IMG/VR virus record: IMGVR_UViG_2537561936_000015
Strand: one strand, 5' to 3'
Source of the DNA: a virus
Taxonomy: Duplodnaviria; Heunggongvirae; Uroviricota; Caudoviricetes
Length of the DNA: 45,623 nt
Every line of letters starts with the position of its first letter. The stretch's first letter is position 1. Shown here in pieces: positions 1,419-14,840 of the stretch. A program made the translations under genes and the position numbers. The notes beneath the pieces were generated by a model. It saw only the letters and a program-made list of their open reading frames with translations. It did not search any database and was not told the origin of the DNA.

Positions 1419-2489
1419 TTATTTGATTTCAATTTTGTCCCACTCCCTGCCTCTGTCATCACGATACTGTGATGCCATGGTGTCCGACTTATGCCCGAGA
1501 AGATGTTGAGCAAACTTATCGCTTATCTGCTTCTCATAGAGTCTTGCAGACAAACTGCGCAACTCGTGAAAGGTAGGCGGATCCCCTTCGAAGGAAAGAC
1601 CTGATGCTTTTCGTGCGCGCATAAAATACCTTGATACTGTGCCGGATGAAAGCGGTTCGCGACGAGTAGATGCAATTATGGTTTCTCCGCCAAGAATCTC
1701 TTTGCATTTATCAAGTGTTTCCTTCATTGATATTCCGAGAGCATCAACATGCAATGCTGTTGGGATGGCAATTTTTACGCCTGTTTTGCTTTGCTCGACA
1801 TAAAGATATCCATCTACGATATCAGACCACTTCATTTCGCATAAATCACCAACTCGTTGCCCGGTAACAACAGCCAGTTCCATTGCAAGTCTGAGCCAAC
1901 ATGGTGATGATTCTGCTGCTTGATAAATTTTCAGGTATTCGTCAGCCGTAAGTCTTGATCTCCTTACCTCTGATTTTGCTGCGCGAGTGGCAGCGACAGG
2001 GTTTGTTGTTATATGGCCTTCAGCTATTGCCTCTCGGAATGCATCGCTCAGTGTTGATCTGATTAACTTGGCTGACGCCGCCTTGCCCTCGTCTATGTAT
2101 CCATTGAGCATTGCCGCAATTTCTTTTGTGGTGATGTCTTCAAGTGGAGCATCAGGCAGACCCCTCCTTATTGCTTTAATTTTGCTCATGTAATTTATGA
2201 GTGTCTTCTGCTTGATTCCTCTGCTGGCCAGGATTTTTTCGTAGCGATCAAGCCATGAATGTAACGTAACGGAATTATCACTGTTGATTCTCGCTGTCAG
2301 AGGCTTGTGTTTGTGTCCTGAAAATAACTCAATGTTGGCCTGTATGGCTTCAGTGATTGCGATTCGCCTGTCTCTGCCTAATCCAAACTCTTTACCCGTC
2401 CTTGGGTCCCTGTAGCAGTAATATCCATTGTTTCTTATATAAAGGTTAGGGGGTAAATCCCGGCGCTCATGACTTCGCCTTCTTCCCAT
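1419..2489 (-). CDS. int: Tyrosine integrase Int (phage lambda)
   Basis: 356-aa ORF MGRRRSHERRDLPPNLYIRNNGYYCYRDPRTGKEFGLGRD.. recognised as lambda Int; adjacent to att. Confidence 0.97.
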   Translation of the reverse strand: MGRRRSHERRDLPPNLYIRNNGYYCYRDPRTGKEFGLGRDRRIAITEAIQANIELFSGHKHKPLTARINSDNSVTLHSWLDRYEKILASRGIKQKTLINYMSKIKAIRRGLPDAPLEDITTKEIAAMLNGYIDEGKAASAKLIRSTLSDAFREAIAEGHITTNPVAATRAAKSEVRRSRLTADEYLKIYQAAESSPCWLRLAMELAVVTGQRVGDLCEMKWSDIVDGYLYVEQSKTGVKIAIPTALHVDALGISMKETLDKCKEILGGETIIASTRREPLSSGTVSRYFMRARKASGLSFEGDPPTFHELRSLSARLYEKQISDKFAQHLLGHKSDTMASQYRDDRGREWDKIEIK

Positions 2490-2685
2490 TTCTGATCCTC
2501 TTCAAAAGGCTACCTGTTACTGGTCGATTTAAGTCAACCTTTACCGCTGATTCGTGGAACAGATACTCTCTTCCATCCTTAACCGGAGGAGGGAATATCC
2601 TGCACTCGCGTACCCATCGACGAACTGTTTCAAGGCTTCTTGGGCGTCGCTGGCGTGCGTTCCACTCCTGAAGTGTCAAGTACAT
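2467..2685 (-). CDS. xis: Excisionase Xis (phage lambda)
   Basis: 72-aa ORF MYLTLQEWNARQRRPRSLETVRRWVRECRIFPPP.. overlapping int 5' end as in lambda. Confidence 0.95.
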   Translation of the reverse strand: MYLTLQEWNARQRRPRSLETVRRWVRECRIFPPPVKDGREYLFHESAVKVDLNRPVTGSLLKRIRNGKKAKS

Positions 2686-2711
2686 CGCAAAGTCTCCGCA
2701 ATTACACGCAA

Positions 2712-2735
2712 GAAAAAACCGCCATCAGGCGGCTT
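2712..2735 (-). terminator. Putative rho-independent terminator (minus strand), stem CCGCC/GGCGG followed by U-run
   Basis: Hairpin ccgcc-atca-ggcgg preceded on plus strand by A6 run; overlaps stop of upstream small ORF. Confidence 0.4.
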
Positions 2736-2892
2736 GGTGTTCTTTCAGTTCTTCAATTCGAATATTGGTTACGTCTGCATGTGCTATCTGCGCCCACAGC
2801 ATCCAGTGGTCATAGCAGTCGCTGATGTTCTCGGCTTCGATAACTCTGTTGAATGGTTCTCCATTCCATTCACCTGTGACTCGGAAGTGCAT
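2725..2892 (-). CDS. Small hypothetical protein (55 aa, lambda orf55-like), MHFRVTGEWNGEPFNRVIEAENISDCYDHWMLWAQIAHADVTNIRIEELKEHQAA
   Basis: Hand-translated ORF below the 60-aa track cut-off; GGAG 7 nt upstream of ATG; position matches small ORF next to xis in lambda. Confidence 0.5.
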   Translation of the reverse strand: MHFRVTGEWNGEPFNRVIEAENISDCYDHWMLWAQIAHADVTNIRIEELKEHQAA

Positions 2893-3134
2893 TTATCATC
2901 TCCATAAAACAAAACCCGCCGTAGCGAGTTCAGATAAAAGAAATCCTCGTCAGTGCGAGGATGCTGTTCATTGCTGCTATACACTTTTTTGCTCTCAACG
3001 TAAGCGGTAGCCCATTCTGTTGGGTTGGTGCAGTTGCTTTTAGGAAATGCTATTTACCCCTTAAATGTCGGCTGAAAGAGCTAAAATCCATGCAAAAAAT
3101 TTACGCAATTTTGTGTATTATTGTGCAGTAAGTA

Positions 3135-3737
3135 ATGAGCTATTTTCTGCGCAAAAAATGGATGGTAAATTTGTCCGGGTCAGGAAAAATTTTATGGGCG
3201 CTAAACATGAAAAAAGATTCGTATCCTTATTTGATTTGCATGACAGTTTCAGGGCTGATCTTTATTTTCCTTTTCTTCTGGTGGCGGGCAGATATCTACA
3301 GGGTCACGTTTCTTAATCAGAGTATATCCCACTATTACATTCTGTTTAGCATGGGAATAGCTTTTCTGTTATCTCTGTTTTGGGTTAAGAAGGGGATAGT
3401 AAAACAAAGAGGCTGGAAGAGTCTGTCAGCATACCTTAAGGTTTATGCAGGGATGTGCATATTTGCAGGATTTTTTCTGATTATACCCCTTACGACACTA
3501 ACTTATTTTTTGCCTGGAGAGACATCGTCTTATGTTGCACCGTATCGGTATACTTCCGGTAGTTCAAAAAGTTGTTCTGGAGCTGAGGTGGATGACCCCG
3601 ATCTACATGAGAATATTCGCATTTGCTATCCGTATGGCAATTATGAGTACGATAATATTATCTATGTTGAAAAGAAAATTAATATATTAGGTGCGGTAGT
3701 GACATATGCACAGACCGCGCGTGATGATACTGAATGA
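3135..3737 (+). CDS. Hypothetical integral membrane protein (3 predicted TM helices + ~75-aa C-terminal soluble domain); AT-rich moron gene
   Basis: 200-aa ORF on opposite strand to the early-left operon; hydrophobic segments YLICMTVSGLIFIFLFFWW, ILFSMGIAFLLSLFWV, VYAGMCIFAGFFLIIPLTTLTYFL; alternative start at 3207 (MKKDSYP..); strongly AT-rich region. Confidence 0.55.
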   Translation: MSYFLRKKWMVNLSGSGKILWALNMKKDSYPYLICMTVSGLIFIFLFFWWRADIYRVTFLNQSISHYYILFSMGIAFLLSLFWVKKGIVKQRGWKSLSAYLKVYAGMCIFAGFFLIIPLTTLTYFLPGETSSYVAPYRYTSGSSKSCSGAEVDDPDLHENIRICYPYGNYEYDNIIYVEKKINILGAVVTYAQTARDDTE

Positions 3738-6370: not shown

Positions 6371-6667
6371 TTATACCTCTGAATCAATATCAACCTGGTG
6401 GCGGGCAATAGTTTCAACCATGTACCGTATGTGTTCTGCCATGCGTTCCTGAAACTCAACATCGTCATCAAACGCACGGGTAATGGCTTTTTTGCTGGCC
6501 CCGTGGCGTTGCAAATGATCGATGCATAGCGATTCAAACAGGTGCTGGGGCAGGCCTTTTTCCATGTCGTCTGCCAGTTCTGCCTCTTTCTCTTCACGGG
6601 CGATCTGCTGGTAGTGACGCGCCCAGCTCTGAGCCTCAAGACGATCCTGAATGTAATAAGCGTTCAT
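6371..6667 (-). CDS. gam: Gam, RecBCD inhibitor (98-aa short form only)
   Basis: [60 protein letters not shown].. recognised as lambda Gam; in-frame TAA 19 codons upstream of the ATG. Confidence 0.9.
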
Positions 6668-6743
6668 GGCTGAACTCCTGAAAATGGCTGTGAAAATATC
6701 GCCCGCGAAATGCCAGGCTGATTAGGAAAACAGGAAAGGGGGG

Positions 6744-6950
6744 TTAGTGATTCAGGCCGTTACCGCGTCCGTCGAGAAAAACTTCCACGAGCAAATCACG
6801 GGTATAAGTGCGCTCGATGCCGCGATGCAGATAAAGCCGTCCGCGTAAATTAGCTGATGCAGTCCAGGTACCATCTTTGTGTTTGACCAGCATTCCTGGC
6901 ATGACCGCACCTCGATTAACGGTCTGCGTTCCGTAATGTTGATGAACCAT
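6744..6950 (-). CDS. Hypothetical early-left protein (68 aa) in the kil/cIII position
   Basis: ORF MVHQHYGTQTVNRGAVMPGMLVKHKDGTWTASANLRGRLYLHRGIERTYTRDLLVEVFLDGRGNGLNH with AGGAG 5 nt upstream of ATG; longer 96-aa frame has poorer RBS. Confidence 0.45.
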   Translation of the reverse strand: MVHQHYGTQTVNRGAVMPGMLVKHKDGTWTASANLRGRLYLHRGIERTYTRDLLVEVFLDGRGNGLNH

Positions 6951-7080
6951 AAAAACTCCTGCCCGTAAGCTGGGCTGCTGAACATATAAAGACTTCTGCG
7001 CGTATTCAGGCGGTGGATGGCCGCCGGTTGTCATAACTAAGCCGCCTCGTTGAAGCGACTAAGGTATGAAATGTTGAGTT

Positions 7081-7221
7081 AATTTCAGCTGGTCACACCG
7101 ACGTTCACGCGTCCGTTTCACCCCTCGCACTCCCCGAAGCCTGCTGAAATTCAAACTGCGGATCTAAGCGGTCATCGCAACGGTGAATCAGGTAGTTGCC
7201 GTATCGTTGTGTTGTTGCGAT
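7081..7221 (-). ncRNA. Structured PL leader; candidate put-like cis-acting antiterminator RNA (two stem-loops)
   Basis: Inverted repeats AATTTCAGC(7081-7089)/GCTGAAATT(7143-7151) and ATCGCAAC(7174-7181)/GTTGCGAT(7214-7221) directly downstream of predicted PL; no ORF in 7035-7545. Confidence 0.3.
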
Positions 7222-7275
7222 GAACTTATTTAAAACTATAGTTGTTTTATCGTCAACAACAAAAGTTGTTTTATT
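7222..7275 (-). promoter_or_regulatory. Putative PL promoter with OL operators (-35 TTGACG, 17-bp spacer, -10 TTAAAT on minus strand; AACAAC/GTTGTT half-sites)
   Basis: Near-duplicate of the PR module at 8277-8312 (GTTGTTGAC[G/T]A..AACAAC.ATAGTTTTAA). Confidence 0.45.
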
Positions 7276-7545
7276 GGTTGTTTTAGATATAACTGGTTGT
7301 ATTTAGGATGGATTTATTTTGTGACTTGAATCGCATAGCGATAACTGAAGCGAGGTTATGGTGGTTTTTTTAACGGTGTGTGTGATGAGGGGAGGGCAAA
7401 AGAAAACCCGGCACGGTGACCGGGATTCTTACGCCGTTAGGTAAAGATATTATTGCGGTGGCTTAATATTACTACCTAGAGCAAAGATAGGAATTAGTTC
7501 TTTACTGAATGAGCACAATGCCCAGTTGATAATTTTTAATTGGTA

Positions 7546-8235
7546 CTACCCATGCTTCCTATATGTCTGCGGCATGCTCCCAATAACCTTACCGAAGATG
7601 AACACCCGGTTCATCTCGTCTTTCTCGATCGGGTCCCACGGTGAGTAGCTTTTGTTATCAGAGATGACCAGCAGCTTATTCTTCATCATTTGCAGGCGCT
7701 TTACATGGGCTGTGTCGTCGTACAGAAACGCATAGATACCATCACCGTCGAAAGATTTAACTGTGATATCAACGAACAGCAGATCACCTGGTTCGATCGT
7801 TCCTGACATGCTGTCACCACGCACGTTAATGATGCGGATATTTTCCGCCTTCCTACCATCGAACATGTGACGAGCATCGTCAAACGAGTACTCAACCGAG
7901 CGTAGAACTTCTACAAACTCACGGTTGATGACTCCCGGCCCAGCACTGACTTCTATATCAAGAACGTCAATCTTGAAGTATTTGGAATGGCTGACAGTTG
8001 ATTGTATTGGTTGCACTGTACTGTCTGACATATTTCCAACGCCAGAAGATAACCATTCTGCGCGCACACCCAAAGCGTTCGCGATCTCCACGATTTTAGT
8101 TGTTTGATTAGCTTTCCCTGTTTCGATTTTCTGAATAGCAGCCTGGCTAACCCCGACCAAATCCCCAAGCGCCTTTTGTGTAAGGCCTCGCGCTAATCTG
8201 GCTTCTTTAAGTCTTTCTGAGAGTGTTGTTTTCAT
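7546..8235 (-). CDS. cI: CI-type prophage repressor (N-terminal HTH + C-terminal LexA/S24 autocleavage domain)
   Basis: 229-aa ORF from MKTTLSERLKEARLARGLTQKALGDLVGVSQAAIQKIE.. with GDSM..K S24 motifs; divergent from cro; not lambda or 434 cI. Confidence 0.85.
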   Translation of the reverse strand: MKTTLSERLKEARLARGLTQKALGDLVGVSQAAIQKIETGKANQTTKIVEIANALGVRAEWLSSGVGNMSDSTVQPIQSTVSHSKYFKIDVLDIEVSAGPGVINREFVEVLRSVEYSFDDARHMFDGRKAENIRIINVRGDSMSGTIEPGDLLFVDITVKSFDGDGIYAFLYDDTAHVKRLQMMKNKLLVISDNKSYSPWDPIEKDEMNRVFIFGKVIGSMPQTYRKHG

Positions 8236-8239
8236 AGTC

Positions 8240-8325
8240 CAAATGTACAACCAAGGTTTTATTCCATCAAACGAAAATGGTTGTTGACTAAAAACAACCA
8301 TAGTTTTAATCTTGATTCAAATTAA
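8240..8325. promoter_or_regulatory. OR/PR-PRM region: palindromic operator ATGGTTGTT-N7-AACAACCAT (8278-8301), PR -35 TTGACT / -10 TAATCT
   Basis: Perfect 9-bp inverted repeat overlapping promoter hexamers between divergent cI and cro. Confidence 0.55.
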
Positions 8326-8339
8326 CCACGGAGGTTGTT

Positions 8340-8570
8340 ATGAACCCAGCTATCAAAACAGCGATCAATATCGTTGGTTCACAAAAGAAACTGGGCGCTG
8401 CTTGCGAAGTTTCACAGCAGGCCGTCTATAAGTGGCTTCACAACAAAGCAAAGGTATCCCCTGAACATGTCGGCAGCATTGTTACGGCTACTGGTGGAGT
8501 AGTGAAGGCATACCAGATTCGCCCGGATCTTCCGAAGTTGTTTCCACACACCGAAAAGAACGCAGCTTAA
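8340..8570 (+). CDS. cro: Cro-like HTH regulator (YdaS/Cro family)
   Basis: 76-aa ORF, HTH SQKKLGAACEVSQQAVYKWL; GGAGG RBS; divergent from repressor. Confidence 0.75.
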   Translation: MNPAIKTAINIVGSQKKLGAACEVSQQAVYKWLHNKAKVSPEHVGSIVTATGGVVKAYQIRPDLPKLFPHTEKNAA

Positions 8571-8639
8571 ATTTCCATTTCACGCTCTTTAACAATAAGC
8601 AATCAACTTAACAGTCAATTCAAACTAAAGGAGTCAATT

Positions 8640-9179
8640 ATGCAACCACTTACATACCAACAGACTAGCGGATTTAGCCCGACTGCGGTGATAAATCGTT
8701 CTCAAACAAAACAGGTGCCAGGCCACGAAAAAATCCGTGATGCCGTCCGCGCCTGGTCGGCTGTAGATAATCAGGATGTCGTTGCCACACTCATTGTGAA
8801 TGAGTATCGGGAGCAGGGCGGCGGCACCATCGATTTCCCTGATGATGTCAGCCGTGCACGCCAGAAGCTGTTCCGCTTCCTCGATAACAAATTCGATTCT
8901 GAAAAATACCGAAATAATGTGCGTGAACTGACCCCGGCAATTCTGGCGGTACTACCGCTGGAATATCGCGGTTACCTGGTTGAGCAGGATAGCTTCATGG
9001 CTAGGTTGGCTGAAATGGAAAAGGAACTCAGTGAGGCAAAACAGGCTGTCATTCTCAACGCACCACGCCACCAGAAACTGAAGGAAATTAGTGAAGGTAT
9101 TGTGTCGATGTTTCGTGTGGACCCAGATCTGGCTGGTCCATTGATGGCGATGGTTACTACCATGCTGGGGGCGATATGA
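8640..9179 (+). CDS. YdaT-like regulatory protein in the cII position (function uncertain)
   Basis: 179-aa ORF after cro with AAGGAG RBS; family assignment from memory only. Confidence 0.5.
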   Translation: MQPLTYQQTSGFSPTAVINRSQTKQVPGHEKIRDAVRAWSAVDNQDVVATLIVNEYREQGGGTIDFPDDVSRARQKLFRFLDNKFDSEKYRNNVRELTPAILAVLPLEYRGYLVEQDSFMARLAEMEKELSEAKQAVILNAPRHQKLKEISEGIVSMFRVDPDLAGPLMAMVTTMLGAI

Positions 9180-9265
9180 CAGGTTCAGAAATGGCGAAAG
9201 CCGGTCTGCTGGAACAGAACCGACTTTCAGGTGCAAATCGTAACACACTCATTGCGGGAGGAATT

Positions 9266-10195
9266 ATGGCAAACACTGCTGAGATATTCAATTTTCCAGT
9301 GCCGGATGCGGCACAAAAGGAGCCGCGCGTGGCAGATCTCGATGATGGTTATACGCGCATTGCAAATGAGTTGCTGGAAGCTGTGATGCTGGCCGGATTA
9401 ACACAGCACCAGCTTCTGGTCTTCCTGGCTGTCATGCGCAAAACATATGGCTTTAATAAAAAACTGGATTGGGTGAGCAACGAGCAACTTTCCGAGTTGA
9501 CCGGGATATTGCCGCACAAGTGTTCTGCTGCAAAAAGTGTTCTGGTAAAGCGTGGGATTTTTATTCAGAGTGGGCGGAATATCGGCATTAATAATGTGGT
9601 CAGTGAATGGTCAACATTACCCGAATCAGGTAAGAAAAATAAAGTTTACCTGAAAGAGGTAAATTTACCTGAATCAGGTAAGAAAAGTTTACCCAAATCA
9701 GGTAAAGGCGTTTACCCGAATCAGGTAAACACAAAAGACAAACTAACAAAAGACAATATAAAACCTTTTTCGTCCGAGAATTCTGGCGAATCCTCTGACC
9801 AGCCAGAAAACGACTTTCCTTTGGAGAAACTGGATGCTGCAATTCAGAGCGGCAGCAAGTGGGGGACAGCAGAAGACCTGACCGCCGCAGAGTGGATGTT
9901 TAACATGGTGAAGACCATCGCGCCCTCAGCCAGAAAACCGAATTTTGCAGGGTGGGCTAACGATATCCGCCTGATGCGTGAACGTGACGGACGTAACCAC
10001 CGCGACATGTGCGTGCTGTTCCGCTGGGCATGCCAGGACAACTTCTGGTCCGGTAACGTGCTGAGTCCGGCCAAACTCCGCGACAAGTGGACCCAACTCG
10101 AAATCAACCGTAACAAGCAACAGGCTGGCGTGACAACCGGAAAATCAAAACTCGACCTGACAAACACTGACTGGATTTACGGGGTGGATTTATGA
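9266..10195 (+). CDS. O: Replication initiator O (non-lambda N-terminal domain, lambda-like C-terminal P-interaction domain)
   Basis: MANTAEIFNFPVPDAAQKEPRVADLDDGYTRIANELLEA.. resembles lambda O N-terminus; C-terminal ~110 aa reads as lambda O; contains iterons. Confidence 0.85.
   Translation: MANTAEIFNFPVPDAAQKEPRVADLDDGYTRIANELLEAVMLAGLTQHQLLVFLAVMRKTYGFNKKLDWVSNEQLSELTGILPHKCSAAKSVLVKRGIFIQSGRNIGINNVVSEWSTLPESGKKNKVYLKEVNLPESGKKSLPKSGKGVYPNQVNTKDKLTKDNIKPFSSENSGESSDQPENDFPLEKLDAAIQSGSKWGTAEDLTAAEWMFNMVKTIAPSARKPNFAGWANDIRLMRERDGRNHRDMCVLFRWACQDNFWSGNVLSPAKLRDKWTQLEINRNKQQAGVTTGKSKLDLTNTDWIYGVDL
9616..9775. repeat. ori: Origin of replication: five ~19-bp palindromic iterons (TTTACCYRAATCAGGTAAR) at 9616-9729 plus A-rich segment inside O
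   Basis: Repeats visible at 9616, 9645, 9664, 9688, 9711 followed by ACAAAAGACAAACTAACAAAAGACAATATAAAACC. Confidence 0.75.
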
Positions 10196-11192: not shown

Positions 11193-11259
11193 TGAAACAG
11201 GTGAGTTGAGTTCAAACTGTAGTACAATTCTCTCCAGTTTGAACAGGAAAGAATATGCT

Positions 11260-11592
11260 ATGAATCCTTATATTTATCTTGGTGGTGCAATACTTGCAGA
11301 GGTCATTGGTACAACCTTAATGAAGTTTTCAGAAGGTTTTACACGGTTATGGCCATCTGTTGGTACAATTATTTGTTATTGTGCATCATTCTGGTTATTA
11401 GCTCAGACGCTGGCTTATATTCCTACAGGGATTGCTTATGCTATCTGGTCAGGAGTCGGTATTGTCCTGATTAGCTTACTATCATGGGGATTTTTCGGCC
11501 AACGGTTGGACCTGCCAGCCATTATAGGCATGATGTTGATTTGTGCCGGTGTGTTGGTTATTAATTTATTGTCACGAAGCACACCACATTAA
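11260..11592 (+). CDS. emrE: Small multidrug resistance (SMR) efflux transporter EmrE
   Basis: 110-aa MNPYIYLGGAILAEVIGTTLMKFSEGFTRLWPSVGTIICYCASFWLLAQTLAYIP.. recognised as E. coli EmrE (DLP12 cargo gene). Confidence 0.9.
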   Translation: MNPYIYLGGAILAEVIGTTLMKFSEGFTRLWPSVGTIICYCASFWLLAQTLAYIPTGIAYAIWSGVGIVLISLLSWGFFGQRLDLPAIIGMMLICAGVLVINLLSRSTPH

Positions 11593-11847
11593 AAATAATT
11601 TGTTTTTAAACGACTAAAATATGGAGGCTCGTATATTTATATGGGCCTCGTTTTATGCTTTTTGTTAATGTCTTTAGTTTTTATTCATTCTTTTGTGCTT
11701 TCAAGATTATGGTGTAAGAAAATTGCAATACGATTATTGTTGTATATTCAAGATAATGTGACCTTAATTGTCTTTTTAAATAAAAATTAAACAAAAATCA
11801 TATCTCACCACTAAGGTTTATAAAAGCATACTTTAGCAGGTGTCACC

Positions 11848-13374
11848 ATGAAAAAAGCCATAGCATATATGCGATTTTCATCACCAGGTCAGATGTCTGG
11901 TGATTCATTAAACCGCCAGAGAAGGCTTATTACTGAATGGCTAAAGGTAAATAGTGATTATTACCTTGATACCGTAACGTATGAAGATTTGGGGTTAAGC
12001 GCATTCAATGGAAAGCATGCACAATCAGGAGCTTTTTCGGAATTTTTAGATGCTATAGAACATGGTTATATATTGCCAGGGACTACATTGTTAGTTGAAA
12101 GTCTGGACAGACTTTCAAGAGAAAAAGTCGGTGAAGCGATTGAGCGTCTGAAATTGATTTTGAATCACGGTATTGATGTTATAACTCTTTGCGATAATAC
12201 AGTCTATAATATTGACTCATTGAATGAGCCATATTCATTAATAAAAGCCATACTTATAGCACAAAGGGCAAATGAAGAAAGCGAGATAAAGTCAAGTCGG
12301 GTTAAATTATCATGGAAGAAAAAACGGCAGGATGCACTGGAGTCAGGCACGATTATGACGGCGTCTTGTCCGAGATGGCTCTCATTGGATGACAAAAGAA
12401 CGGCTTTTGTTCCAGACCCCGACAGGGTGAAAACTATTGAGCTAATTTTTAAACTCAGGATGGAAAGGCGCTCATTGAATGCAATAGCCAAGTATTTAAA
12501 TGATCATGCTGTAAAGAATTTCTCAGGAAAAGAAAGTGCATGGGGACCTTCTGTAATTGAAAAATTATTAGCGAATAAAGCTCTGATAGGTATATGCGTA
12601 CCTTCATATCGTGCAAGAGGTAAAGGAATAAGTGAAATCGCTGGCTATTATCCCAGAGTCATATCAGATGATTTGTTTTACGCTGTGCAGGAAATTCGGT
12701 TGGCACCTTTTGGTATTAGCAATAGTAGCAAAAATCCTATGTTGATAAATCTACTTCGAACAGTTATGAAGTGCGAGGCTTGTGGTAATACCATGATTGT
12801 TCATGCGGTATCTGGAAGTTTGCATGGCTATTATGTTTGTCCGATGAGAAGACTGCATCGATGTGACAGGCCATCAATAAAGAGAGATTTGGTTGATTAT
12901 AATATCATTAATGAGTTGCTTTTTAATTGTAGTAAAATCCAACCAGTTGAAAACAAGAAAGATGCTAATGAAACTTTAGAGTTGAAAATTATTGAGCTCC
13001 AGATGAAAATTAATAATTTAATTGCTGCATTATCTGTTGCGCCTGAAGTTACCGCTATAGCAGAAAAAATCAGAGTATTAGATAAGGAATTACGAAGGGC
13101 TTCTGTATCATTAAAAACTTTGAAGAGTAAAGCGGTGAGTTCACTTGGTGATTTTCATGCTATTGACTTAACCAGTAAAAATGGGCGAGAGCTATGTCGT
13201 ACACTTGCCTATAAAACATTCGAAAAAATCATAATCAATACAGATAATAAAACCTGTGATATCTATTTTATGAATGGCATTGTTTTTAAACACTATCCTT
13301 TAATGAAAACAATATCTGCCCAGCAGGCGATAAGTACTCTCAAATATATGGTTGATGGTGAGGTTTATTTTTGA
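11848..13374 (+). CDS. ybcK: Large serine recombinase (DLP12 YbcK-like)
   Basis: 508-aa ORF, N-terminal resolvase-type catalytic region (AYMRFSSPGQ); AT-rich; same position as ybcK in DLP12. Confidence 0.85.
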   Translation: MKKAIAYMRFSSPGQMSGDSLNRQRRLITEWLKVNSDYYLDTVTYEDLGLSAFNGKHAQSGAFSEFLDAIEHGYILPGTTLLVESLDRLSREKVGEAIERLKLILNHGIDVITLCDNTVYNIDSLNEPYSLIKAILIAQRANEESEIKSSRVKLSWKKKRQDALESGTIMTASCPRWLSLDDKRTAFVPDPDRVKTIELIFKLRMERRSLNAIAKYLNDHAVKNFSGKESAWGPSVIEKLLANKALIGICVPSYRARGKGISEIAGYYPRVISDDLFYAVQEIRLAPFGISNSSKNPMLINLLRTVMKCEACGNTMIVHAVSGSLHGYYVCPMRRLHRCDRPSIKRDLVDYNIINELLFNCSKIQPVENKKDANETLELKIIELQMKINNLIAALSVAPEVTAIAEKIRVLDKELRRASVSLKTLKSKAVSSLGDFHAIDLTSKNGRELCRTLAYKTFEKIIINTDNKTCDIYFMNGIVFKHYPLMKTISAQQAISTLKYMVDGEVYF

Positions 13375-13983: not shown

Positions 13984-14766
13984 ATGGACAATATTAATAA
14001 ACACGGGCTCTCAAGAAGAATACCTGAGACAATAAAACGTCAGATAAGGCAAAGGTGCGGCTTTGGCTGTGTAATTTGTGGATTTGGATTTTATGATTAT
14101 GAGCATTTTAAACCTGACTTCGTTGATGCCAAAGTACATGATCCGAATGGAATGACACTTCTTTGCTCCCAATGCAATCAAAAAAGAGCTCGTGGTAGAC
14201 TTTCAGCACAGACAGTGGAAATAGCTGACAGAAATCCCAAGTGCTTACAGGCTGGTTTTGCAAATGAAATGTTTGATTTTCATAATGAGCCTATAACAGT
14301 AAAATTTGCAGGAGTGACGTTTCATAACTGTCAAAATTTGATTGTAGTCAACGAACAACCCATTCTTTCTGTGAAACCTTCACCCATACCACATGGACCG
14401 ATGCTTTTATCAGGAATTTTCTGTAATTCTATTGGTAAGGAGACTTTACTGATAGATGAAAATGAATGGAAAGCTAAATCAGACAATTGGGATGTGGAGT
14501 GTACCGGCCCGCGTATAACAATACGACGTGGGCCAGGAGAGTTTGCCCTCGTTCTAAAAATGGAACCTCCAACAGGATTGATTGTTGAGCGTCTTGATAT
14601 GTTGTATGAAGGGGTCAGGATGAAAGGAGATAAAGATCTGCTGGAAGTTTCGATTAATGGAGGTCCCTTGCACAGATGGCAATCATGCTCAATGTCAAAT
14701 TGCCATACAGGGCTTGCGATTCAGGGCGGTATTAGAGCTGCTAATGATCCTTTGTATTGCGCCTAA
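13984..14766 (+). CDS. Hypothetical protein with N-terminal HNH (His-Me finger) nuclease-like zinc-finger motif and ~190-aa unknown C-terminal domain
   Basis: 260-aa ORF; residues 24-66 RCGFGCVICG..YDYEHF..HDPNGMTLLCSQCNQKR give Cys cluster-EH-N-CxxC spacing; AT-rich codon usage; not AraC-like. Confidence 0.6.
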   Translation: MDNINKHGLSRRIPETIKRQIRQRCGFGCVICGFGFYDYEHFKPDFVDAKVHDPNGMTLLCSQCNQKRARGRLSAQTVEIADRNPKCLQAGFANEMFDFHNEPITVKFAGVTFHNCQNLIVVNEQPILSVKPSPIPHGPMLLSGIFCNSIGKETLLIDENEWKAKSDNWDVECTGPRITIRRGPGEFALVLKMEPPTGLIVERLDMLYEGVRMKGDKDLLEVSINGGPLHRWQSCSMSNCHTGLAIQGGIRAANDPLYCA

Positions 14767-14808
14767 ATCCACTAAATTGATTTTCAACAATCAACTTGCC
14801 ATAATTAA

Positions 14809-14840
14809 GTCACCGGAGTTTGAACTCCTCCGGTGACTTC
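14809..14840 (+). terminator. Hairpin GTCACCGGAG-loop-CTCCGGTGAC after the 260-aa ORF (putative terminator)
   Basis: Perfect 10-bp stem, 9-nt loop, followed by TTCTGCGC. Confidence 0.4.

What the first reader, a model, noticed from the sequence alone, without database searches (positions are those of the whole stretch)
7222..9179. Non-lambda immunity module: LexA-type repressor, duplicated promoter-operator modules, YdaS-like Cro and a 179-aa protein in place of cII
Seen in sequence: repressor with S24 autocleavage domain, divergent cro, and PL (7222-7260) and PR (8277-8312) that are near-identical 36-bp modules built around AACAAC/GTTGTT half-sites, including a perfect palindrome ATGGTTGTT-N7-AACAACCAT at OR. 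No rexAB/sieB-like genes lie between cI and PL. The gene after cro (8640-9179) is not CII-like. Established knowledge: such modules define immunity specificity; the repressor C-terminus resembles HK022-type repressors as I recall them.
Basis: partly seen in the sequence, partly recalled or inferred. Interest (0 to 1): 0.38.

Follow-up and report, generated by a model that had tools for sequence, protein, structure and literature searches.

The report
Ordinary lambdoid prophage immunity switch
This is the lysis/lysogeny control region of a very common E. coli lambda-like prophage (cleavable repressor, Cro, phi80-type CII, two promoter-operator sets); it is built from known parts and is already present and annotated in sequenced phages, so it is ordinary.

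Summary
The region contains a 229-aa HTH + S24 repressor (7546-8235, minus), a divergent YdaS-family cro (8340-8570), a 179-aa gene (8640-9179), and two about 88%-identical promoter-operator modules, including the perfect ATGGTTGTT-N7-AACAACCAT palindrome at 8277-8301. The interpretation needs two corrections. First, the 179-aa protein is CII-like in function. It is 66% identical to phage phi80 cII and belongs to the YdaT family (Pfam 8.5e-30; predicted fold matches only YdaT structures), the published CII equivalent. Second, the operators are most likely 14-bp dyads of the form ACAAC-N4-GTTGT, as in phage 434, not GTTGTT-N7-AACAAC. All five matches with at most one mismatch in 45.6 kb lie in OL or OR. 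Seventeen relatives from other genera keep these half-sites while the 4-bp centres vary. A sister immunity group has different half-sites at the same positions. The big palindrome is the junction of two adjacent operators. OR reads as lambda-like: three sites 24 and 23 bp apart, plus a fourth over the cro ribosome-binding site, with a leaderless cI. The module is 99.9% identical to Escherichia phage PhiR34_1, where it is annotated cI/Cro/cII. It occurs in 1524 of 5426 complete E. coli genomes. It is already known and of low interest. A side note: this phage has no N gene.

The parts
6744..7034 (-). kil-like gene, the first gene of the PL operon. The likely product is 68 aa, starting at 6950; the 96-aa ORF is the maximal reading frame.
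   Evidence: PHROG 294 'Kil protein for bacterial septation inhibition', 1.2e-38. NCBIfam FtsZ inhibitor, 1.8e-17, below its curated cut-off. Annotated Kil in relatives.
6951..7220 (-). Untranslated PL leader of about 190-270 nt. It contains no N gene and no nutL boxA.
   Evidence: No ORF of 40 aa or more. No Rfam family. No similarity to HK022 putL or putR. The fold z-score is only -1.35.
7228..7233 (-). PL -10 hexamer (TTAAAT on the minus strand), inferred
   Evidence: 17-bp spacer from TTGACG. The same TTGACn-17-TTAAAT/TTTAAT arrangement follows the OL pair in 10 relatives.
7232..7245 (-). OL1 operator, ACAACTATAGTTTT on the minus strand, lying in the PL spacer
   Evidence: One-mismatch match to ACAAC-N4-GTTGT. 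One copy of a 17-nt direct repeat with 24-bp spacing. A conserved pair is seen in relatives.
7251..7256 (-). PL -35 hexamer (TTGACG on the minus strand), inferred
   Evidence: Read from the sequence. The position is conserved in relatives.
7256..7269 (.). OL2 operator, ACAACAAAAGTTGT, a perfect dyad abutting the PL -35
   Evidence: Zero-mismatch match. Lies 24 bp from OL1. Ten of 17 relatives have the same pair 23-24 bp apart downstream of cI.
7270..7545 (.). Empty cargo (moron) slot between cI and PL, including the cI terminator at 7407-7424 (minus strand)
   Evidence: No ORF. Terminator hairpin CCCGGTCACCGTGCCGGG followed by a T-run. Relatives carry a roughly 1.4-kb two-gene cassette here, GevT/GevA with an ASCH domain.
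7546..8235 (-). cI repressor, 229 aa: HTH domain with recognition helix SQAAIQKIE, plus an S24 autocleavage domain
   Evidence: Pfam. PHROG 4. AG, GDSM and VKRL motifs. 41% identical to HK022 cI.
8242..8247 (-). PRM -10 hexamer (TACATT on the minus strand). It ends 6 nt before the cI ATG, so the cI mRNA is inferred to be leaderless.
   Evidence: T1, A2 and T6 of this hexamer are invariant in 17 genera-spanning relatives (alignment A1). There is no Shine-Dalgarno sequence in the 11-12 nt before the ATG.
8247..8260 (.). Operator d (OR3-like), ACAACCAAGGTTTT, inside the PRM spacer and -10
   Evidence: Nine of 10 half-site columns are invariant and the 4 centre columns are free in A1. Present in all 30 loci that carry the SQAAIQKIE helix.
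8265..8270 (-). PRM -35 hexamer (TTGATG on the minus strand), inferred
   Evidence: 17-bp spacer to TACATT. The TTG is invariant in A1.
8271..8284 (.). Operator c (OR2-like), ACGAAAATGGTTGT. Weak left half. It abuts the PRM -35 and overlaps the first base of the PR -35.
   Evidence: Two-mismatch match. The right half GTT.T is invariant in A1. Relatives have ACAATCATAGTTGT or ACAAACATGGTTGT at this position.
8284..8289 (+). PR -35 hexamer (TTGACT)
   Evidence: Read from the sequence. Conserved as TTGAC/TTGAT in A1.
8294..8307 (.). Operator b (OR1-like), ACAACCATAGTTTT, in the PR spacer
   Evidence: An 18-nt direct repeat with operator d. Eight of 10 half-site columns are invariant.
8307..8312 (+). 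PR -10 hexamer (TAATCT), inferred
   Evidence: 17-bp spacer. T1, A2 and T6 are invariant in A1.
8325..8338 (.). Operator a, ACCACGGAGGTTGT, covering the cro Shine-Dalgarno sequence. This is the weakest assignment.
   Evidence: One-mismatch match. An AC.AC-GGAG-GTTKT form is kept in most relatives but absent in L025 and L026. HK022 also has an operator between its PR -10 and the cro ribosome-binding site.
8340..8570 (+). cro, 76 aa, YdaS family
   Evidence: PF15943, 4.1e-17, above its cut-off. PHROG 35, 1.5e-27.
8584..8595 (+). boxA-like GCTCTTTAACAA in the cro-cII spacer, at the nutR position
   Evidence: Unique exact match in the window. Relatives carry a boxA downstream of both PL and cro.
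8640..9179 (+). phi80-type CII (YdaT family), 179 aa
   Evidence: PF06254, 8.5e-30. 66% identical to phi80 cII. PHROG 163 'CII-like transcriptional activator', 3.9e-67. PDB profile hit to 8bt1, 1.4e-7. AlphaFold2 model with Foldseek hits only to 3c4r and 8bt1.

Best explanation
This is the immunity (lysis/lysogeny) switch of a functional, widespread E. coli lambdoid phage lineage. It works like the lambda, 434 and HK022 switches but uses a different set of interchangeable parts.

Shown here:
- cI has a 434-like HTH domain and a LexA-like S24 self-cleavage domain.
- cro is a YdaS-family HTH protein.
- The gene after cro is a phi80-type, YdaT-fold CII.
- The only sequence motif specific to the two control regions is the 14-bp dyad ACAAC-N4-GTTGT.

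Inferred mechanism:
- cI dimers bind these dyads.
- At OL, two sites 24 bp apart flank the PL -35 hexamer and shut off PL, which drives kil-gam-bet-exo.
- At OR, sites b (in the PR spacer) and c (touching the PR -35 and abutting the PRM -35) repress PR. By analogy with lambda OR2, site c probably also stimulates PRM.
- Site d sits in the PRM spacer and -10 and gives negative autoregulation. It is also the likely target through which Cro shuts off PRM.
- A fourth, weaker site a lies over the cro ribosome-binding site.
- cI is transcribed from PRM as a leaderless mRNA.
- On DNA damage, RecA-stimulated cleavage at A98-G99 separates the DNA-binding domain from the dimerisation domain and derepresses PL and PR.
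- After infection, the YdaT-type CII tetramer activates a leftward establishment promoter near the cro-cII junction. I could not locate that site.

Immunity specificity resides in a small exchangeable block: cI codons 1-44, OR, cro (8103-8638), and a roughly 60-bp OL patch.
For: Domains and families. Catalytic and cleavage motifs.

Motif specificity: ACAACNNNNGTTGT with at most one mismatch has 5 matches in 45,623 bp, against 1.45 expected. All 5 fall in the two control regions, which together span roughly 220 bp, where about 0.007 would be expected. The unbiased repeat finder returns the same units: a 17-nt direct repeat 24 bp apart at OL, and an 18-nt direct repeat at OR.

Phylogenetic footprint: 17 loci from Kosakonia, Enterobacter, Klebsiella, Brenneria, Pantoea, Erwinia, Providencia, Serratia, Morganella, Photorhabdus, Xenorhabdus and others carry a 54-77% identical DNA-binding domain with the same recognition helix. 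In them the half-site columns and the T1, A2 and T6 positions of both -10 hexamers are invariant, while the operator centres and flanks vary. Ten of these loci also have an OL pair 23-24 bp apart, at variable distance downstream of cI.

Covariation: loci with a different recognition helix lack the motif (L037-L041). The sister immunity group (ST104, PhiR68_2, Klebsiella phage 6) has helix AQPTIWRL and carries ATAC(G)-N-(C)GTAT dyads at the equivalent positions of OR and OL.

Resemblance to 434: the DNA-binding domain is 39% identical to the 434 repressor (E 7e-16), and 434 operators are ACAA-N6-TTGT spaced 22-23 bp apart.

CII. Published work shows that YdaS and YdaT are Cro and CII analogues, that YdaT activates a PRE, and that the repressor mRNA is leaderless in CP-933P (PMC8630535; PMC9986795).

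Functionality: the region is 99.9% identical to Escherichia phage PhiR34_1, a phage record whose listed host is K-12 MG1655.

Mosaic boundaries.
Against: - No binding, transcription-start or cleavage experiment exists for this immunity type that I could find. All promoter and operator functions are inferred from sequence and analogy.
- The simple sigma-70 scanner did not call PR, PL or PRM, because their -10 hexamers are weak.
- Site c has a poor left half. Site a coincides with the Shine-Dalgarno sequence, so its conservation may be translational rather than operator-related. Site a is absent in L025 and L026.
- The extra 3-4 bp of symmetry that make the 9-N7-9 palindrome perfect in this window are not explained by the 14-bp model. 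They could be chance.
- No CII binding site or PRE was identified. The CP-933P YdaT motif TTGATT-N6-AATCAA is not present near cro or cII: the best nearby matches have 2-3 mismatches, at the chance level.
Confidence: 0.8

Rival explanations
1. Each control region has one long operator, GTTGTT-N7-AACAAC (ATGGTTGTT-N7-AACAACCAT at OR), bound by one repressor dimer over the -35 hexamer.
For: The palindrome at 8277-8301 is perfect (9 + 9 nt) and unique in the window. It covers the PR -35, which is a sensible place for a repressor.
Against: - The OL counterpart has an 8-bp spacer, as does Klebsiella L027.
- Brenneria and Symbiopectobacterium loci break the palindrome (GTTTT...AAAAC) but keep a full 14-bp dyad at site b.
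- The best-conserved site (d, 8247-8260) is an isolated 14-bp dyad with no partner at N7.
- Half-site centres would be 13-14 bp apart and so would not lie on one face of the helix, unlike the 9 bp of the 14-bp dyad and of 434 operators.
- Allowing 2 mismatches, the pattern finds only chance hits elsewhere and none at OL.
Confidence: 0.07
2. The region is a decayed, non-functional remnant of a cryptic prophage like DLP12 or Rac. The repeats are historical duplications without a present regulatory role.
For: The window carries DLP12-type cargo (emrE, ybcK) to the right of the replication genes. It has no N gene. The slot between cI and PL is empty.
Against: - All ORFs are intact, with catalytic and cleavage motifs present.
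- The region is 99.9% identical to a deposited phage genome whose listed host is K-12, and 93-97% identical to several other isolated phages.
- The operator half-sites and -10 positions are under purifying selection across genera.
Confidence: 0.05
3. The cro-like and 179-aa genes form a YdaS/YdaT toxin-antitoxin pair, as the Pfam names suggest, rather than Cro and CII.
For: The Pfam names are 'Bacterial toxin YdaS' and 'Bacterial toxin ydaT'. Many database homologues are called 'toxin YdaT domain-containing protein'.
Against: - Published experiments show that YdaS and YdaT of CP-933P are Cro and CII analogues and are not a toxin-antitoxin pair (PMC8630535).
- YdaT is a tetrameric DNA-binding protein (PMC9986795).
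- The 179-aa protein is 66% identical to the genetically defined cII of phi80.
- The gene order cI / cro / this gene / O / P is the canonical lambdoid one.
Confidence: 0.03

Closest known systems
Escherichia phage PhiR34_1 (PV340559), with IdasGreatGrand, PhiR47_2, PhiR26_1, PhiR5_1 and Turner
   Same: The same immunity region at 96-99.9% nucleotide identity, annotated cI / Cro / cII / O. The cI protein is 99.6-100% identical.
   Different: Several of these phages carry a roughly 1.4-kb GevT/GevA (ASCH) cassette between cI and PL. In this window the slot is empty, as it is in PhiR34_1. No operators are annotated in any of these records.
Phage phi80 early region (X13065, JX871397)
   Same: The CII protein is the same type: 66% identity over all 179 aa. 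The gene order is the same: cI, a cro-like gene (gene 30), cII, then replication genes. A short stretch downstream of N matches window 7011-7071.
   Different: phi80 has an N gene and a nutL boxA downstream of OL. It also has genes 40A and 40B between cI and OL. Its cI, cro and operators are unrelated at the DNA level.
Phage HK022 immunity region (X16093)
   Same: - The cI C-terminal S24 domain is 50% identical.
- cI lies directly next to OL/PL, with no rex genes.
- Two OL operators are annotated.
- One OR operator lies between the PR -10 and the cro ribosome-binding site.
- There is no N gene.
   Different: - The HK022 DNA-binding domain is unrelated: no BLASTP hit.
- Its operators are 15-bp TGAAC-N5-GTTCA.
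- HK022 has Nun and put RNAs, and no similarity to put was found here.
- HK022 has a lambda-type CII site (oE TTGC repeats), not a YdaT-type CII.
Phage 434 repressor and operators
   Same: Both use 14-bp dyad operators with the same outer bases, ACAA-N6-TTGT, arranged as three OR sites 22-24 bp apart. The DNA-binding domain is 39% identical (E 7e-16).
   Different: - Recognition-helix residues differ: 434 has T-Q-Q-S-I-E-Q, this protein has S-Q-A-A-I-Q-K.
- Here the fifth base (C/G) is invariant.
- The PR and PRM -35 hexamers are separated by an operator here instead of overlapping.
- There is a fourth site over the cro ribosome-binding site.
- The C-terminal domains are only distantly related: 29% identity overall.
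CP-933P / Sp12 immunity region of E. coli O157:H7 (PaaR2 / YdaS / YdaT)
   Same: A YdaS-family Cro and a YdaT-fold CII sit downstream of PR. The repressor mRNA is leaderless. PL and PR carry shared repeats (PMC8630535; PMC9986795; fold match).
   Different: - The repressor there (PaaR2) has no S24 domain and heads a toxin-antitoxin operon.
- YdaT there is only 28% identical to this protein.
- Its TTGATT-N6-AATCAA site is not found at the cro-cII junction here.
Sister immunity group: Salmonella phage ST104, Escherichia phage PhiR68_2, Klebsiella phage 6 LV-2017
   Same: The cI region from residue 45 onward is the same (83% identical to ST104 at the protein level). The cII gene is 99% identical in PhiR68_2 at the nucleotide level. 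The layout of 14-bp dyads relative to PR, PRM and PL is the same.
   Different: The recognition helix is AQPTIWRL rather than SQAAIQKIE, and the half-sites are ATAC(G)/(C)GTAT rather than ACAAC/GTTGT. This predicts a different immunity specificity.

Membership tests
Lambdoid CI / LexA-like autocleavable repressor | N-terminal HTH DNA-binding domain | tested here: met
   PF01381 HTH_3, 5.4e-13, residues 9-62. 39% identical to the 434 repressor DNA-binding domain.
Lambdoid CI / LexA-like autocleavable repressor | C-terminal S24 domain with a Ser-Lys dyad and an Ala-Gly cleavage site | tested here: met
   PF00717, 1.5e-18. A98-G99, GDS142M and VK179RL are present. The same motifs occur in HK022 cI.
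Lambdoid CI / LexA-like autocleavable repressor | RecA-stimulated self-cleavage leading to induction | not testable with these tools
   Needs cleavage assays or mitomycin C induction.
Lambdoid CI / LexA-like autocleavable repressor | A divergent cro gene with multiple shared dyad operators at OR and a second operator set at PL | tested here: met
   Binding itself was not tested.
HK022 immunity group | HK022-type DNA-binding domain and TGAAC-N5-GTTCA operators | tested here: not met
   No BLASTP hit between the N-terminal domains. HK022 operators differ from those here. Only the C-terminal domain is related, at 50% identity.
Phage 434 immunity group | ACAA-N6-TTGT operators recognised by the Gln28/Gln29/Gln33 helix | tested here: inconclusive
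   The operator form matches. Only one of the three Gln residues is kept in the BLASTP alignment, where the helix reads S-Q-A-A-I-Q-K. Cross-immunity was not testable.
YdaS / COG4197 Cro-type regulators | Match to PF15943 above the gathering score, encoded first downstream of PR and divergent from the repressor | tested here: met
   62.2 bits against a cut-off of 30. For position.
YdaT / phi80-type CII | Sequence membership in PF06254 | tested here: met
   103.5 bits against a cut-off of 21. 66% identical to phi80 cII. PHROG 163, 3.9e-67.
YdaT / phi80-type CII | POU-like HTH domain followed by a long helix (the fold of 8bt1 and 3c4r) | tested here: met
   AlphaFold2 with a 31-sequence alignment gives mean pLDDT 72, about 90 for residues 30-110. 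Foldseek hits only 3c4r and 8bt1, with probability 1.00 and TM 0.65-0.67 by target. The PDB profile hit is 1.4e-7. The C-terminal helices have pLDDT of only 60-70, and tetramerisation was not modelled.
YdaT / phi80-type CII | Position between cro and the replication genes | tested here: met
   Order is cro 8340-8570, this gene 8640-9179, then O 9176-10195 and P.
YdaT / phi80-type CII | Binds an inverted repeat near the cro-cII junction and activates a leftward PRE | tested here: inconclusive
   The CP-933P motif is not found there. The only local inverted repeat, GATTTA-N15-TAAATC at 8671-8697, is not conserved in phi80. No site was identified.
N / nut antitermination (typical lambdoid early control) | N gene and a nutL (boxA + boxB) immediately downstream of PL | tested here: not met
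   No ORF lies between PL and kil. There is no boxA in the PL leader. phi80 and many relatives do have a boxA there.
HK022-type put RNA antitermination | put-like RNA downstream of PL and/or PR | tested here: not met
   Local alignment scores to HK022 putL and putR equal those of shuffled controls. No Rfam hit. A structural search with a put covariance model was not done.

The most novel reading that the evidence does not exclude
The immunity region may belong to a lambdoid design that works without N. The PL operon starts with a 190-270-nt leader that has no N gene, no nutL boxA and no HK022-like put element. A lone rrn-type boxA (GCTCTTTAACAA) remains between cro and cII. OR carries a fourth operator over the cro ribosome-binding site. 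If so, delayed-early expression in this very common E. coli phage lineage would rely on N-independent read-through, either through boxA and Nus factors alone or through an undescribed leader RNA.
Probability: 0.15. Interest if true: 0.35.

Novelty: already known. Interest (0 to 1): 0.12.

Why it matters
The practical value is for annotation.
- The 'toxin YdaS' and 'toxin YdaT' labels on this very common E. coli prophage module (28% of complete genomes) should read Cro and phi80-type CII.
- The operators of this immunity group can be written as ACAAC-N4-GTTGT dyads.
- This predicts which prophages are homo-immune and which are hetero-immune. For example, PhiR34_1-type and PhiR68_2/ST104-type phages share most of cI and all of cII but differ in recognition helix and operators.

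It does not change what is known about how lambdoid switches work.

Tried and rejected
- Rfam, at gathering thresholds on the whole window and at permissive thresholds on 6600-9300, found nothing relevant.
- Folding the PL leader gave a z-score of only -1.35.
- Smith-Waterman comparison of the PL leader and the PR-proximal transcript with HK022 putL and putR gave scores equal to shuffles.
- The sigma-70 consensus scan did not call PR, PL or PRM. It gave only a plus-strand hit at 7215-7242, which I regard as chance because the cargo genes in relatives are on the cI strand.
- I searched for the CP-933P YdaT operator near cro and cII. Only chance-level matches with 2-3 mismatches were found.
- The inverted repeat GATTTA-N15-TAAATC inside the 5' end of cII is not conserved in phi80 or L008, so I dropped it as a CII site.
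- I looked for a third OL operator. None has 2 or fewer mismatches; only extra ACAACC half-sites lie upstream of OL2.
- Single-sequence AlphaFold2 of the 179-aa protein was useless, with pLDDT 39.
- A literature search for the PhiR phage names and for GevT/GevA returned nothing relevant.
- I tried to confirm that the conserved Pectobacterium homologue is RdgA. NCBIfam gives no name and the papers found only cite Liu et al. 1994, so this remains a recollection.
- The GTTGTT at 7211 belongs to the PL leader and is also present in PhiR68_2, which has different operators. It is therefore not an operator half-site.


Full report
**Context.** The window is an almost complete E. coli lambdoid prophage. 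To the left of the finding lie exo, bet, gam (Pfam Gam, 3.6e-65) and a Rac-type kil. To the right lie O- and P-type replication genes, ren, an SMR pump and a ybcK-like recombinase, which is a DLP12-like arrangement.

**Observation.**
- cI is 7546-8235 on the minus strand (229 aa). It has HTH_3 and Peptidase_S24 domains and the A98-G99, GDS142M and VK179RL motifs.
- cro (8340-8570) scores above the gathering cut-off for PF15943 YdaS.
- The palindrome ATGGTTGTT-N7-AACAACCAT at 8277-8301 is perfect and unique.
- The PL and PR modules align with 28 of 31 identities and one 1-bp gap.
- Between cI and PL there is no ORF, only the cI terminator at 7424-7407.
- The recalled resemblance to HK022 holds for the C-terminal domain (50% identity, E 1.8e-55) but not for the DNA-binding domain, which gives no hit. 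Full-length identity is 41%.

**The module is already known.**
- Window 7000-9300 is 99.9% identical to Escherichia phage PhiR34_1, where the genes are annotated cI, Cro, cII and O. It is 93-97% identical to about a dozen other isolated coliphages.
- The immunity-specific part (8030-8480) occurs at 95% identity or more in 1524 of 5426 complete E. coli genomes, including O26:H11 11368, O104:H4 2009EL-2071 and O157:H7 strains.
- It also occurs in at least 80 IMG/VR contigs.

**The 179-aa protein.**
- It matches PF06254 (YdaT) at 8.5e-30 and PHROG 163 'CII-like transcriptional activator' at 3.9e-67.
- It is 66% identical over its full length to phi80 cII, 67% to mEp237 CII and 52% to HK225 and HK639 cII.
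- A profile of 31 homologues hits the YdaT crystal structure 8bt1 at 1.4e-7.
- An AlphaFold2 model built with that alignment has pLDDT of about 90 for residues 30-110. In the PDB it matches only 3c4r and 8bt1 (probability 1.00, TM 0.65-0.67, 28% identity).
- Published work shows that YdaS and YdaT of prophage CP-933P are the Cro and CII analogues. YdaT activates a PRE-like promoter, is homologous to phi80 CII, and is a tetramer with a POU-like HTH domain that binds an inverted repeat (PMC8630535; PMC9986795).
- The gene is therefore CII in function and belongs to a known alternative CII family. It is neither an unknown substitute nor a toxin.

**Operators.** The evidence favours the opposite pairing, a 14-bp dyad ACAAC-N4-GTTGT.

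1. *Specificity.* With at most one mismatch the dyad pattern has five matches in the 45.6-kb window (1.45 expected by chance), and all five lie in OL or OR: 7232-7245, 7256-7269, 8247-8260, 8294-8307 and 8325-8338. A sixth site with two mismatches lies at 8271-8284.

2. *Repeat structure.* The repeat finder independently reports a 17-nt direct repeat 24 bp apart at OL and an 18-nt direct repeat at OR.

3. *Conservation.* A scan of one genome per species found 30 loci whose repressor carries the same recognition helix, (V/I/L)SQAAIQKIE. I aligned the 16 that have an adjacent cro with the window, giving 17 sequences that include Kosakonia, Enterobacter, Klebsiella, Brenneria, Pantoea, Erwinia, Providencia, Serratia, Morganella, Photorhabdus and Xenorhabdus.
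   - The half-site columns are invariant or nearly so.
   - The four central columns of site d vary freely.
   - The flanks diverge.
   - Ten of these loci also show a second pair, [ACAAC-N4-GTTGT]-TGACn6-[ACAAC-N4-GTTTT]-AAAT, at variable distance downstream of cI. This is an OL/PL module of the same design.

4. *Covariation.* Loci with another recognition helix lack the motif. The sister group (ST104, PhiR68_2, Klebsiella phage 6) shares the rest of cI but has helix AQPTIWRL. It carries ATAC(G)..(C)GTAT dyads at the corresponding positions of OR and OL.

It is destroyed in L021, L023 and L025, which keep a complete 14-bp site b with the weak half on the other side. Half-site centres 9 bp apart, as in the 14-bp dyad, fit an HTH dimer. 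Centres 13-14 bp apart do not (inference from the general geometry of HTH dimers).

6. *Resemblance to 434.* The DNA-binding domain is 39% identical to that of the 434 repressor, whose operators are ACAA-N6-TTGT.

The perfect 9-N7-9 palindrome is therefore best read as the right half of site c plus the left half of site b. The extra 3-4 symmetric bases remain unexplained.

**Promoters (inferred).**
- In alignment A1 the T1, A2 and T6 positions of two hexamers are invariant: TAATCT at 8307-8312, lying 17 bp after TTGACT at 8284-8289 (PR), and TACATT on the minus strand at 8247-8242, lying 17 bp after TTGATG at 8270-8265 (PRM).
- PRM's -10 ends 6 nt before the cI ATG and no Shine-Dalgarno sequence precedes it. 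The cI mRNA is therefore probably leaderless, as for lambda cI and for PaaR2.
- Site d lies in the PRM spacer and -10. Site c abuts the PRM -35 and touches the PR -35. Site b fills the PR spacer. Their centres are 24 and 23 bp apart.
- This is the lambda OR3-OR2-OR1 logic (established knowledge), with an additional weak site a over the cro ribosome-binding site. HK022 also has a site in that position.
- At OL, two sites flank the -35 TTGACG. The -10 is TTAAAT at 7233-7228.

**Mosaicism.** Compared with PhiR68_2, the window differs only in 8103-8638 (cI codons 1-44, OR, cro and the cro-cII spacer) and in a short OL patch. The rest of cI is 90% identical and cII is 99% identical. In relatives the slot between cI and PL holds a GevT/GevA (ASCH) cassette on the cI strand, upstream of the same terminator. 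It is empty here.

**What remains open.** I could not locate the CII binding site or PRE.

The phage has no N gene.
- PL is followed by a 190-270-nt leader and then kil. phi80 has N and a boxA in this place, and many relatives with the same operators carry a boxA downstream of both PL and cro.
- The window keeps only the cro-proximal boxA, at 8584-8595.
- No HK022-type put element was detectable by sequence or by Rfam.
- Because PhiR34_1 is a deposited phage genome whose listed host is K-12, the N-less design is presumably viable. How delayed-early transcription is sustained was not resolved.

**Verdict.** The element is an ordinary, already sequenced and annotated lambdoid immunity module assembled from known families. 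Interest is low.

Noticed in passing
window 6951-7222 (minus strand) and 8584-8595: The prophage has no N gene and no nutL. PL is followed by a 190-270-nt leader and then kil. phi80 and many relatives with the same operators have a boxA, and in phi80 also N, downstream of PL. A lone exact rrn-type boxA, GCTCTTTAACAA, survives between cro and cII. No HK022 put similarity and no Rfam hit were found.
   Followed up: partly
window 14777-14794: TTGATTTTCAACAATCAA is a perfect match to the published CP-933P YdaT operator TTGATT-N6-AATCAA. About 0.003 exact matches would be expected in the window. It lies 11 bp after the stop of the 260-aa ORF 13984-14766 and just before a strong hairpin at about 14810-14838. 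The window's own YdaT-type protein is only 28% identical to the CP-933P protein, so the meaning is unclear.
   Followed up: no
window 7270-7545; L141 732-2160; L142 727-2143; L003 3281-4736: The cI-PL gap is a cargo slot. It is empty here and in PhiR34_1. In PhiR47_2, 4A7, PhiR68_2 and others it holds a roughly 1.4-kb two-gene cassette, annotated GevT toxin and GevA antitoxin (ASCH domain), on the cI strand and upstream of the same terminator.
   Followed up: partly
L009-L020 (Pectobacterium species), about 2350-3235 in each locus: Every Pectobacterium species representative carries a chromosomal cI-like S24 repressor. Its DNA-binding domain is 66-72% identical to this cI, with the same SQAAIQKIE helix. 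A perfect ACAAC-N4-GTTGT dyad sits 11 bp before its start, but there is no adjacent cro. From memory this may be RdgA, the DNA-damage regulator of pectin lyase. I could not confirm the name.
   Followed up: partly
window 8102/8103 and 8638/8639, plus about 7225-7290: There are sharp mosaic boundaries against PhiR68_2. Only cI codons 1-44, OR, cro, the cro-cII spacer and a short OL patch differ. This defines a compact immunity cassette that cuts inside the cI DNA-binding domain.
   Followed up: yes
window 8589-8640: The cro-cII spacer contains direct repeats: TTAACA twice and AGTCAATT twice, each 19 bp apart. The element TTAACAATAAGCAATCAAC has a near-copy (TTAACTGATAAGGCAATGAC) just before cII in PhiR68_2. 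It is a candidate for PRE or CII-site elements, or for translational signals. This was not resolved.
   Followed up: partly
window 11206-13374: An emrE-type SMR pump and a ybcK-like serine recombinase are inserted after ren, as in prophage DLP12 and in phage PhiR34_1.
   Followed up: no
window 7215-7242 (plus strand): The consensus scanner calls a rightward promoter, TTGCGA-16-TATAGT, inside the OL/PL region, pointing into the empty slot and antisense to cI. It is probably a chance match.
   Followed up: no
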